From NCBI RefSeq assembly GCF_988242995.1, contig NZ_OZ547043.1: DNA of 64,000 nt; one strand, 5' to 3'. Positions 40,470 through 41,372 of the stretch are shown here, piece by piece (the first letter of the stretch is position 1; every line of letters begins with the position of its first letter). Position numbers and translations under genes: made by a program. The notes under the pieces are model-generated. The model worked only from the letters and a program-made list of their open reading frames with translations, searched no databases and had not been told where the DNA came from.

Positions 40470-41180
40470 GTGCACAGAAAACCCCCAGCTAGGCTGGGGG
40501 TTCCGGAAAGCTTTCAGCTTTGAGCCAGTTATTAAAACCCCTTTTGATTTGTTAAAACACCTTGCGGTCTGGCAACTGCAAGTGTCAAACAAGAAATCAA
40601 AAGGGGGTCCCAATGGGGGACGAAAAGAGCTTAGCGCACACCCGCTGGAACTGTAAATATCACATAGTTTTTGCGCCGAAATACCGAAGACTGGCGTTTT
40701 ACGGAGAGAAGCGTAGGGCGATAGGCAGTATTTTGAGAAAGCTGTGTGAGTGGAAAAGCGTACGGATTCTGGAAGCAGAGTGCTGCGCAGATCATATCCA
40801 TATGCTTGTGGAAATCCCACCCAAAATGAGCGTATCCGGCTTTATGGGATATCTGAAAGGGAAAAGCAGTCTGATGCTTTACGAGCAGTTTGGGGATTTG
40901 AAATTCAAATACAGAAACAGGGAGTTCTGGTGCCGAGGGTACTATGTCGATACGGTGGGTAAGAACACGGCGAAGATACGTGACTACATAAAGCACCAGC
41001 TTGAAGAGGATAAAATGGGGGAGCAGTTATCGATTCCATATCCGGGCAGCCCGTTTACGGGCCGTAAGTAACGAAGTTGAATGCAAATGTCAGATCGTAT
41101 GCGCCTGTTAGGGCGCGGCTGGTAACAGAGCCTTACAGGCGCATTTGAAAAACCTCCGGCTATGCCGGAGGATATTTATT
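40467..41180 (+). mobile_element. IS200-family insertion sequence, copy A (~714 bp)
   Basis: Sequence shared with copy B at a constant offset of 4877 bp; left-end hairpin CCCCCAGC-TAG-GCTGGGGG, single tnpA ORF, right-end hairpin CCTCCGGC-TAT-GCCGGAGG; flanks differ immediately outside. Confidence 0.9.
40613..41071 (+). CDS. tnpA: IS200 Y1 (HuH) transposase TnpA
   Basis: 152-aa ORF from ATG at 40613: MGDEKSLAHTRWNCKYHIVFAPKYRR...; HuH motif HIHMLVEIP and catalytic Tyr in RGYYVDTVG; the longer 169-aa ORF 40562.. in the track is an upstream extension. Confidence 0.92.
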   Translation: MGDEKSLAHTRWNCKYHIVFAPKYRRLAFYGEKRRAIGSILRKLCEWKSVRILEAECCADHIHMLVEIPPKMSVSGFMGYLKGKSSLMLYEQFGDLKFKYRNREFWCRGYYVDTVGKNTAKIRDYIKHQLEEDKMGEQLSIPYPGSPFTGRK

Positions 41181-41188
41181 GTCTCCCT

Positions 41189-41202
41189 TTGATACCGAAC
41201 AA
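41189..41202 (+). promoter_or_regulatory. FNR box of the dmsA promoter
   Basis: TTGATACCGAACAA, near-consensus TTGAT-N4-ATCAA half-sites, ~170 bp upstream of the dmsA start codon; dmsABC is a classic FNR-activated operon. Confidence 0.65.
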
Positions 41203-41372
41203 TAATTACTCCTCACTTACACGTAATACTACTTTCGAGTGAAAATCTACCTATCTCTTTGATTTTCAAATTATTCGATGTATACAAGCCTATATAGCGA
41301 CCTGCTATAGAAATAATTACACAATACGGTTTGTTACTGGAATCAATCGTGAGCAAGCTTGAGTGAGCCATT

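What the first reader, a model, noticed from the sequence alone, without database searches (positions are those of the whole stretch)
41167..41210. IS200 copy A ends 9 bp upstream of the dmsA FNR box
The right end of copy A (…GGAGGATATTTATT, ending at 41180) lies 9 bp from the FNR box TTGATACCGAACAA at 41189-41202. The core FNR-dependent promoter is therefore intact, but everything upstream of about -57 has been replaced by IS200 sequence. Any upstream activating or repressing sites (for example ModE, IHF or Fis, which I recall being implicated at dmsA) would be displaced by ~714 bp. The IS right-end hairpin and any outward transcription now abut the promoter. Anaerobic DMSO reductase expression may be altered in this strain.
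Basis: inference. Interest (0 to 1): 0.45.

Follow-up and report, generated by a model that had tools for sequence, protein, structure and literature searches.

The report
IS200 beside the dmsA promoter
A small mobile element (IS200) has landed at the end of the serS terminator, its usual kind of target, which in E. coli lies 8 bp upstream of the dmsA promoter's FNR site; the promoter is intact, so this is most likely an ordinary, near-neutral insertion.

Summary
An intact 711-bp IS200 (40470-41180) ends 8 bp upstream of the dmsA FNR box (41189-41202). That puts the junction at about -57 of the class II FNR promoter.

In IS-free E. coli the serS stop codon lies only 46 bp upstream of the insertion point. 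That stretch holds the serS terminator, so there is almost no upstream regulatory DNA to displace. FNR, NarL-like, IHF-like and ModE-like motifs all lie downstream of the junction and are untouched.

The position follows from IS200's target choice. In all nine distinct E. coli insertion loci I examined, the IS left end abuts the T-tract of the upstream gene's terminator. The IS right end supplies a similar AT-rich tract and GC hairpin, which looks like a terminator on both strands, so the swap is roughly like for like. I expect little change in dmsABC regulation, but this is untested.

The allele is rare: 2 of 5,426 complete E. coli genomes, each with a different IS200 variant.

Side observations: an identical second copy follows dmsC, so the operon is bracketed. 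The IS hairpin also replaces the 3' terminator of the putative antisense sRNA STnc130.

The parts
39131..40423 (+). serS coding sequence (upstream gene, same orientation as the IS)
   Evidence: ORF list; annotated as serS in matching E. coli records
40444..40469 (+). serS intrinsic terminator, intact: A5, hairpin GCGCC-TGCG-GGCGC (40449-40462), T7 (40463-40469). This is the IS200 target.
   Evidence: Sequence; fold -20 kcal/mol, z = -4.0; identical in the empty-site allele
40470..41180 (+). IS200 copy A, 711 bp, no target duplication (boundary ambiguity about 0 to -2 bp)
   Evidence: Empty-site alignments; 100% identity to copy B; megablast to IS200 elements in thousands of E. coli records
40480..40603 (+). 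IS200 left-end hairpin (40480-40502, the known bidirectional terminator) and structured tnpA 5'UTR; Rfam STnc490 region
   Evidence: Rfam RF01405, 146 bits; Ellis 2015, PMC4513863
40613..41071 (+). tnpA, intact 152-aa Y1 (HUH) transposase
   Evidence: Translation; NCBIfam NF033573 transpos_IS200, 144 bits against a cut-off of 55
41153..41171 (.). IS200 right-end hairpin CCTCCGGC-TAT-GCCGGAGG, flanked by A5 (5') and ATATTTATT (3'); terminator-like on both strands
   Evidence: Terminator scan hits on both strands; folds
41181..41188 (+). Retained native spacer GTCTCCCT between the IS end and the FNR box (-56 to -49)
   Evidence: Alignment to the empty site
41189..41202 (+). FNR box TTGATACCGAACAA of dmsA P1 (centre -41.5)
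   Evidence: Motif scan; Myers 2013 Table 1 gives -41.5 for dmsABC
41207..41254 (+). Core promoter. Exact NarL heptamers TACTCCT (41207-41213) and TACCTAT (41248-41254), -10-like TAATAC (41224-41229), inferred +1 near 41237.
   Evidence: Heptamer scan; sequence. The +1 is inferred from the -41.5 spacing, not measured.
41252..41297 (.). IHF-like site (41252-41264, minus strand, 1 mismatch) and best ModE-like site TGTATACAAGCCTATAT (41278-41297, 1 mismatch) in the 5' leader
   Evidence: Motif scans. These are motif matches only, not footprints.
41140..41282 (-). Rfam STnc130 match: a putative sRNA antisense to the dmsA promoter. Its 3' terminator is here supplied by the IS200 right-end hairpin instead of the serS bidirectional terminator.
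   Evidence: RF02084: 100.9 bits here against 140.1 bits in the IS-free allele; alignment; folds
41373..45310 (+). dmsA (41373-43817), dmsB (43828-44445), dmsC (44447-45310), all intact
   Evidence: ORF list; gene lengths match the annotated operon in L003
45347..46057 (+). IS200 copy B, identical to A and in the same orientation, inserted after the dmsC terminator T-tract
   Evidence: empty site in PCN033

Best explanation
An IS200 element has inserted at its habitual target: directly after the T-tract of an intrinsic terminator, co-oriented with the upstream gene. Here that terminator belongs to serS. In E. coli the dmsA FNR box begins only 8 bp after that T-tract, so any IS200 insertion at this terminator must abut the promoter. 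The juxtaposition is therefore a by-product of target choice, not a regulatory design.

The insertion leaves intact:
- the serS terminator;
- the FNR box at -41.5 and the core promoter;
- the NarL-, IHF- and ModE-like sequences;
- the leader and dmsABC.

It moves only the serS terminator hairpin and serS itself, by 711 bp. The IS right end puts an analogous structure in the same place: an AT-rich tract at -65..-57 and a GC hairpin at -84..-66 preceded by A5. The native arrangement is T7 at -63..-57 and a GC hairpin at -77..-64 preceded by A5.

Inference: the IS right end should still block read-through into dmsA, since the serS terminator and the IS left-end terminator are also in the way. It should also still terminate antisense transcripts leaving the promoter. 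Anaerobic, nitrate and molybdate control of dmsABC should then be essentially unchanged.

Shown: the anatomy, the target pattern and the rarity. Inferred: the functional neutrality.
For: - Boundaries and simple insertion without duplication.
- Target pattern: in 9 distinct loci (after paaY, fabF, bhsA, a DUF2713 gene, plaP, a hypothetical gene, emrB, serS and dmsC) the left end GTGCACAG (GTGAACAG at the DUF2713 locus) directly follows a hairpin plus T-tract, co-oriented with the upstream gene. [quoted passage not shown]
- At least two independent hits on this same T-tract. PCN033 has T6|IS|T-GTCTCCC, against T7|IS|GTCTCCC here. PCN033 and S1-CAM-04-C carry a variant about 96% identical to the window's IS.
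- Only 46 bp separate the insertion point from the serS stop codon in the empty site.
- All motif matches to FNR, NarL, IHF and ModE lie downstream of the junction.
- The right-end hairpin is terminator-like on both strands.
- The only promoter-like hexamer pair at the junction (TTGTCT...AATAAT) is also present in the native allele, so no new hybrid promoter is created.
- IS200 has a weak tnpA promoter and a left-end bidirectional terminator (PMC4513863).
- In JB2 and PCN033 a P2-like prophage replaces everything upstream of the terminator copy, so native DNA beyond about -80/-85 can be replaced in natural isolates; dmsA expression there is untested.
Against: - No expression data exist for this allele.
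- The published DNase I and hydroxyl-radical footprints could not be read. I recall the NarL-phosphate footprint at dmsA being large (about 97 bp). If it extends upstream of -57, its distal edge would now be IS sequence.
- FNR class II activation at dmsA uses AR1 (Lamberg & Kiley 2000, title cited). From general knowledge, AR1 contacts the alpha-CTD bound around -60 to -75, exactly the DNA that changed. A T7 tract and ATATTTATT are similar but not identical for alpha-CTD.
- The plus-strand tail of the IS right-end hairpin (ATATTTATTG) is an imperfect T-tract, so some tnpA read-through into dmsA is possible.
- Recurrent insertion at one site could in principle reflect selection rather than targeting.
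Confidence: 0.7

Rival explanations
1. The insertion measurably changes dmsABC expression. Possible routes are altered alpha-CTD or upstream DNA contacts at -57..-85, loss of the distal edge of the NarL-phosphate footprint (weaker nitrate repression), or low-level FNR-independent read-through from tnpA.
For: - The junction lies at -57, at the edge of the region used by FNR and alpha-CTD at class II promoters.
- The IS right-end plus-strand terminator has an imperfect T-tract.
- IS200's own terminator is described as 'weaker'.
- Three lineages carry an IS at this spot.
Against: - The replaced sequence is structurally analogous: an AT tract plus a GC hairpin.
- No motif for any known regulator is lost.
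- No new promoter-like element is created.
- The tnpA promoter is intrinsically weak.
- Recurrence is explained by terminator targeting.
- The allele is rare, 2 of 5,426 genomes, and has not spread.
Confidence: 0.25
2. The significant feature is not the promoter junction but the pair of identical, co-oriented IS200 copies bracketing dmsABC (40470-46057). Homologous recombination between the copies would delete or amplify the operon. In principle TnpA could act on the left end of A and the right end of B and move a 5.6-kb unit carrying dmsABC with its promoter.
For: - The copies are 100% identical and directly oriented, 4.9 kb apart.
- Each has a clean empty site elsewhere.
- Site B is occupied in 18 and site A in 2 of 5,426 genomes, and none has both. 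The double arrangement is therefore unique in that set.
Against: - No deletion or transposed product was looked for or seen.
- IS200 is nearly dormant.
- From general knowledge of IS608, single-strand excision efficiency falls steeply with element length.
- The two copies are simply explained as two ordinary terminator-targeted insertions, perhaps a local hop.
Confidence: 0.1
3. Assembly artefact: an IS200 copy was misplaced at the serS-dmsA junction by repeat mis-assembly.
For: The two copies are identical and close together, a configuration that short-read assemblers can confuse.
Against: - Both junctions of both copies join precisely to the sequences that are contiguous in empty-site genomes, with no missing or duplicated bases.
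- Independent complete genomes carry IS200 at each of the two sites.
Confidence: 0.03

Closest known systems
IS200 (IS200/IS605 family, IS200 group) of Salmonella, E. coli and Shigella; IS1541 of Yersinia
   Same: - A single 152-aa Y1 transposase.
- About 710 bp, with sub-terminal hairpins instead of inverted repeats.
- No target duplication.
- The left-end terminator hairpin and structured 5'UTR (Rfam STnc490).
- Insertion next to a host terminator.
   Different: - The window's copies are a minor E. coli variant. They are 99.6-99.7% identical to copies in KE55 and EC21Z-144, and about 96% identical to the common IS200C.
- TnpA has R instead of Q at residue 123 relative to the KE55 copy.
- This insertion site is rare.
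dmsA P1, the class II FNR-activated, NarL-repressed, ModE/IHF-modulated promoter of E. coli K-12
   Same: From -56 through the dmsA start codon the sequence matches IS-free E. coli, apart from a common polymorphism at 41301. The FNR box is TTGATACCGAACAA at -41.5.
   Different: Upstream of -56 the serS terminator is replaced by the IS200 right end, and serS is now 711 bp further away.
IS-generated hybrid or outward promoters (for example IS1, IS2, IS5 or IS10 activating neighbouring genes)
   Same: An IS end lies immediately upstream of a gene's promoter.
   Different: No -35 element is contributed by the IS and no outward promoter-like site is found. The IS end is a terminator-like hairpin, so this looks like insulation rather than activation.
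STnc130 (Rfam RF02084), a putative Salmonella/enterobacterial sRNA next to dmsA
   Same: The body of the RNA (41181-41282, minus strand) is conserved and runs antisense across the FNR box.
   Different: The native 3' terminator, which is the serS terminator read on the other strand, is replaced by the IS200 right-end hairpin plus U5. The Rfam score falls from 140 to 101 bits, and the predicted RNA is about 8 nt longer.

Membership tests
IS200 (IS200/IS605 family) | Single ORF encoding a Y1 HUH transposase of about 150 aa | tested here: met
   152-aa ORF at 40613-41071; NF033573 transpos_IS200, 144 bits against a cut-off of 55
IS200 (IS200/IS605 family) | About 700-710 bp, no terminal inverted repeats, sub-terminal hairpins at both ends | tested here: met
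   711 bp. Left hairpin at 40480-40502, right hairpin at 41153-41171. Rfam STnc490 at 146 bits.
IS200 (IS200/IS605 family) | Insertion without target-site duplication | tested here: met
   Filled-versus-empty comparison at both copies shows a simple 711-bp insertion
IS200 (IS200/IS605 family) | Transposition activity (single-strand peel-and-paste) | not testable with these tools
   Indirect evidence only: two identical copies 4.9 kb apart and an intact tnpA
Class II FNR-dependent promoter (dmsA P1) | FNR box TTGAT-N4-ATCAA centred near -41.5 relative to the transcription start | tested here: inconclusive
   The box is present with 1 mismatch at 41189-41202, and a -10-like TAATAC sits at the right distance. 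The -41.5 value comes from Myers 2013. The start site was not measured in this strain.
Class II FNR-dependent promoter (dmsA P1) | Known accessory sites (NarL, IHF, ModE) retained | tested here: inconclusive
   All motif matches are downstream of the junction and identical to the IS-free allele. The published footprints could not be obtained.
IS-created hybrid or outward promoter | A -35 or complete promoter in the IS end, correctly spaced to drive the adjacent gene | tested here: not met
   The only promoter-like pair near the junction (TTGTCT/AATAAT) also exists in the native allele. Nothing else was found in 41072-41180. The scan is a simple consensus scan.
STnc130 sRNA (RF02084) | Score above the Rfam gathering threshold over the full model | tested here: met
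   100.9 bits against a threshold of 55, model positions 1-135. The terminator part aligns to the IS hairpin with an insertion.
STnc130 sRNA (RF02084) | An expressed, discrete transcript | not testable with these tools
   Listed only as a 'putative sRNA' next to dmsA in PMC3632133. No promoter passed the scan.

The most novel reading that the evidence does not exclude
Two readings remain open. In the first, the recurrent IS200 hits at the serS terminator are selected because they retune dmsABC, for example through weaker nitrate repression or some aerobic expression, which would be relevant to the recently proposed stress-defence role of DmsABC. In the second, the two identical co-oriented copies make dmsABC, with its own promoter, a 5.6-kb IS200-bounded unit that can be excised, amplified or moved.
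Probability: 0.08. Interest if true: 0.5.

Novelty: new member of a known kind. Interest (0 to 1): 0.17.

Why it matters
It matters little for dmsABC biology unless expression is shown to differ.

The useful outcome is an explanation. IS200 homes to the T-tract of intrinsic terminators, so wherever a terminator is packed against the next promoter, as at serS/dmsA, the IS will end up touching that promoter. It does so while carrying terminator-like hairpins at both ends that limit the damage. That helps explain how a nearly dormant IS can persist in compact intergenic regions. It is also a caution against reading regulatory meaning into IS-promoter proximity.

The bracketing of dmsABC by identical copies is a potential source of operon loss or amplification in this lineage.

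Tried and rejected
- **Primary papers.** I tried to read the papers that hold the dmsA footprints and fusion end points: Bearson 2002 by DOI, PMC id and PubMed id; Melville & Gunsalus 1996; Cotter & Gunsalus 1989. None is held. McNicholas 1998 has no PMC id in the reference lists I saw, so I did not try it. Text searches for site positions in other papers gave only general statements. Positions therefore rest on motif scans and on Myers 2013.
- **Hybrid or outward promoter from the IS end.** Rejected. No new promoter-like site is created, and TTGTCT/AATAAT pre-exists in the native allele.
- **Displaced upstream ModE site.** The only ModE-like match upstream of the insertion point in the empty allele has 2 mismatches and straddles the serS stop codon. 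I judged it to be chance.
- **Junction searches elsewhere.** An exact junction pattern found nothing in 100,044 species-representative genomes or in JGI metagenome contigs.
- **Assembly artefact.** Rejected on the clean junctions.
- **Source strain.** Not identified. No complete E. coli genome is more than 99.3% identical over a neighbouring 18 kb.

Full report
**What is there.** The window carries the E. coli arrangement rarA-serS-dmsABC-ycaC-ycaD.
- serS ends at 40423.
- Its intrinsic terminator follows: A5, hairpin GCGCC-TGCG-GGCGC at 40449-40462, then T7 at 40463-40469.
- An IS200 element follows directly. It has the left-end hairpin at 40480-40502 and the structured 5'UTR (Rfam STnc490, 146 bits).
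- It has an intact 152-aa tnpA at 40613-41071 (NF033573, 144 bits).
- It has a right-end hairpin at 41153-41171 and ends ...GGAGGATATTTATT at 41180.
- Eight native bases (GTCTCCCT) separate it from TTGATACCGAACAA at 41189-41202, the dmsA FNR box. dmsA starts at 41373.

**Boundaries.** Three comparisons fix the element as a 711-bp insert (GTGCACAG...ATATTTATT, 40470-41180) with no target duplication.
- A second copy (B, 45347-46057) is identical. Identity runs over 40467-41180 and 45344-46057 and is lost from 41181/46058 onward.
- The IS-free allele of strain 55989 reads GCGCTTTTTTT|GTCTCCCTTTGATACC.
- The IS-free dmsC-ycaC spacer of PCN033 reads CTCTTT|TATTTCTGC.

Copy A's own flanks leave a +/-2 bp ambiguity in the boundaries. 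The copy B junction excludes the +2 reading, so the remaining uncertainty is about 0 to -2 bp. Its '~714 bp' includes three flanking T's that the two sites share by chance.

With the FNR site centred at -41.5 (Myers et al. 2013, PMC3688515, Table 1), +1 is near 41237 and the junction falls at -57/-56.

**What was displaced.** In the IS-free allele the insertion point is only 46 bp from the serS stop codon. That stretch holds the serS terminator. There is no upstream regulatory region to displace, only a terminator and a coding sequence.

Motif scans of both alleles from -160 to +140 gave the following.
- The FNR box is at -48..-35.
- Exact NarL heptamers lie at -30..-24 and +12..+18. One-mismatch heptamers lie between -35 and +22 and again at +73..+83.
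- An IHF-like site is at +16..+28.
- The best ModE-like site (TAYAT-N7-TAYAT, one mismatch) is at +42..+61.

All of these lie downstream of 41181 and are identical in the two alleles. This fits my recollection that McNicholas et al. 1998 placed the ModE and IHF sites downstream of P1. I could not obtain that paper or Bearson et al. 2002, so the published footprints are unchecked. In particular, I recall the NarL-phosphate footprint being large, and it might reach upstream of -57.

Natural variation gives some further support. In strains JB2 and PCN033 a P2-like prophage is integrated at the serS terminator. Only a terminator copy is left upstream of -56. Native DNA beyond about -80/-85 can therefore be replaced in natural isolates, though dmsA expression there is untested.

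**Why the IS is exactly there.** I fetched ten further IS200 copies from E. coli genomes. Nine of them, together with the window's two copies and loci L002-L004, gave nine distinct insertion loci: after paaY, fabF, bhsA, a DUF2713 gene, plaP, a hypothetical gene, emrB, serS and dmsC. The tenth, L014, was not picked up by my hairpin pattern and was left out.

In every one of the nine, the IS is co-oriented with the upstream gene. Its left end (GTGCACAG; GTGAACAG at the DUF2713 locus) directly follows a GC-rich hairpin plus T-tract. A recent preprint reports that terminator-like sequences immediately upstream are most enriched for the IS200/IS605 family (10.1101/2025.07.22.666184).

The serS T-tract has been hit more than once.
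- PCN033 has T6|IS|T-GTCTCCC, against T7|IS|GTCTCCC here. JB2, which has the same prophage but no IS, has T7.
- PCN033 and S1-CAM-04-C carry the IS200C variant, about 96% identical to the window's element.

The simplest account is terminator-T-tract targeting. Because the dmsA FNR box starts 8 bp after that tract in E. coli, any such insertion must touch the promoter.

**What the new upstream context looks like.** The IS right end is A5 + CCTCCGGC-TAT-GCCGGAGG + ATATTTATT. The displaced native sequence is A5 + GCGCC-TGCG-GGCGC + T7. Both place an AT-rich tract at about -57..-65 and a GC hairpin behind it. The scan calls the IS hairpin terminator-like on both strands (folds).

Rfam makes the same point on its own. 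Its STnc130 model is a putative sRNA transcribed antisense across the FNR box, and it normally ends at the serS terminator read on the opposite strand. The model still matches end to end at 41282..41140 by aligning its terminator to the IS hairpin. The score is 100.9 bits here against 140.1 bits in the IS-free allele.

Transcription entering from the left would meet three structures in turn. The first is the intact serS terminator. The second is the IS left-end bidirectional terminator, with only the weak tnpA promoter behind it (Ellis et al. 2015, PMC4513863). The third is the right-end hairpin.

No new promoter-like hexamer pair is created. The one pair found at the junction (TTGTCT...AATAAT) is also present natively.

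**Mechanistic verdict.** The most likely reading (about 0.7) is a near-neutral, target-driven insertion that swaps one terminator-like upstream context for another. FNR, NarL, IHF and ModE control should be left intact. The anatomy, target pattern and rarity are shown. The neutrality is inferred.

The main rival (about 0.25) is a modest change in expression. Possible routes are altered alpha-CTD or upstream contacts in the -57..-85 region, loss of the distal edge of the NarL footprint, or weak read-through. The plus-strand tail of the IS hairpin is an imperfect T-tract.

**Rarity and context.**
- Site A is occupied in 2 of 5,426 complete E. coli genomes.
- Site B is occupied in 18.
- No genome has both sites occupied.
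- The exact junction is absent from the species-representative genomes and from the metagenome contigs.
- The window's lineage is not in the complete-genome set. The best identity is 99.3% over a neighbouring 18 kb.

The two copies are identical and directly oriented, and they bracket dmsABC with its promoter. That makes the operon a candidate for deletion or amplification by homologous recombination. Far less likely, it could move as a 5.6-kb IS200-bounded unit. I did not test either possibility.

**Comparison with known systems and novelty.** The element passes every testable membership criterion for IS200. The promoter is the known dmsA P1. The 'IS-created promoter' class is not met. This is a new, rare insertion site of a known element behaving as that element usually does. 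Interest is low unless expression assays show an effect.

Noticed in passing
window 45347-46057 (with 40470-41180): A second IS200 copy, 100% identical and co-oriented, sits after the dmsC terminator, so dmsABC and its promoter are bracketed by direct repeats 4.9 kb apart. Site B is occupied in 18 of 5,426 complete E. coli genomes, site A in 2, and both in none.
   Followed up: partly
window 41140-41282, minus strand: Rfam STnc130, a putative sRNA antisense to the dmsA FNR box, matches at 101 bits. Its normal 3' end is the serS terminator read backwards. Here the IS200 right-end hairpin plus U5 takes that place. The IS-free allele scores 140 bits.
   Followed up: partly
loci L002-L013 and window 40444-40480, 45330-45360: In all 9 distinct IS200 insertion loci examined, the left end abuts the T-tract of the intrinsic terminator of a co-oriented upstream gene. 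This suggests strong terminator-T-tract targeting.
   Followed up: partly
L004 (PCN033) 1-5880; L015 (JB2) 1-2500: A P2-like prophage (integrase, Cox, C4 and isrK RNAs) is integrated at the serS terminator in two E. coli strains. It duplicates the terminator, so the same 30 bp serve as a phage attachment site and an IS200 target. In PCN033 the IS200 sits after the prophage-side terminator copy.
   Followed up: partly
window 46100-64000 and 38000-48000: No complete E. coli RefSeq genome exceeds about 99.3% identity to this region, so the source lineage (a rare E. coli lineage or a Shigella) is not represented in that set.
   Followed up: partly
window 41301 (about +65 of dmsA P1): A single position just 3' of the ModE-like motif is C here and in S1-CAM-04-C, G in 55989 and A in PCN033. 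It is a three-state polymorphism in an otherwise invariant leader.
   Followed up: no
window 40979-40981 (tnpA codon 123), and the same codon in copy B: TnpA has Arg where the KE55 copy and the IS200C copy in S1-CAM-04-C have Gln (KIRDY against KIQDY), two residues before a conserved Tyr. Both window copies share it.
   Followed up: no
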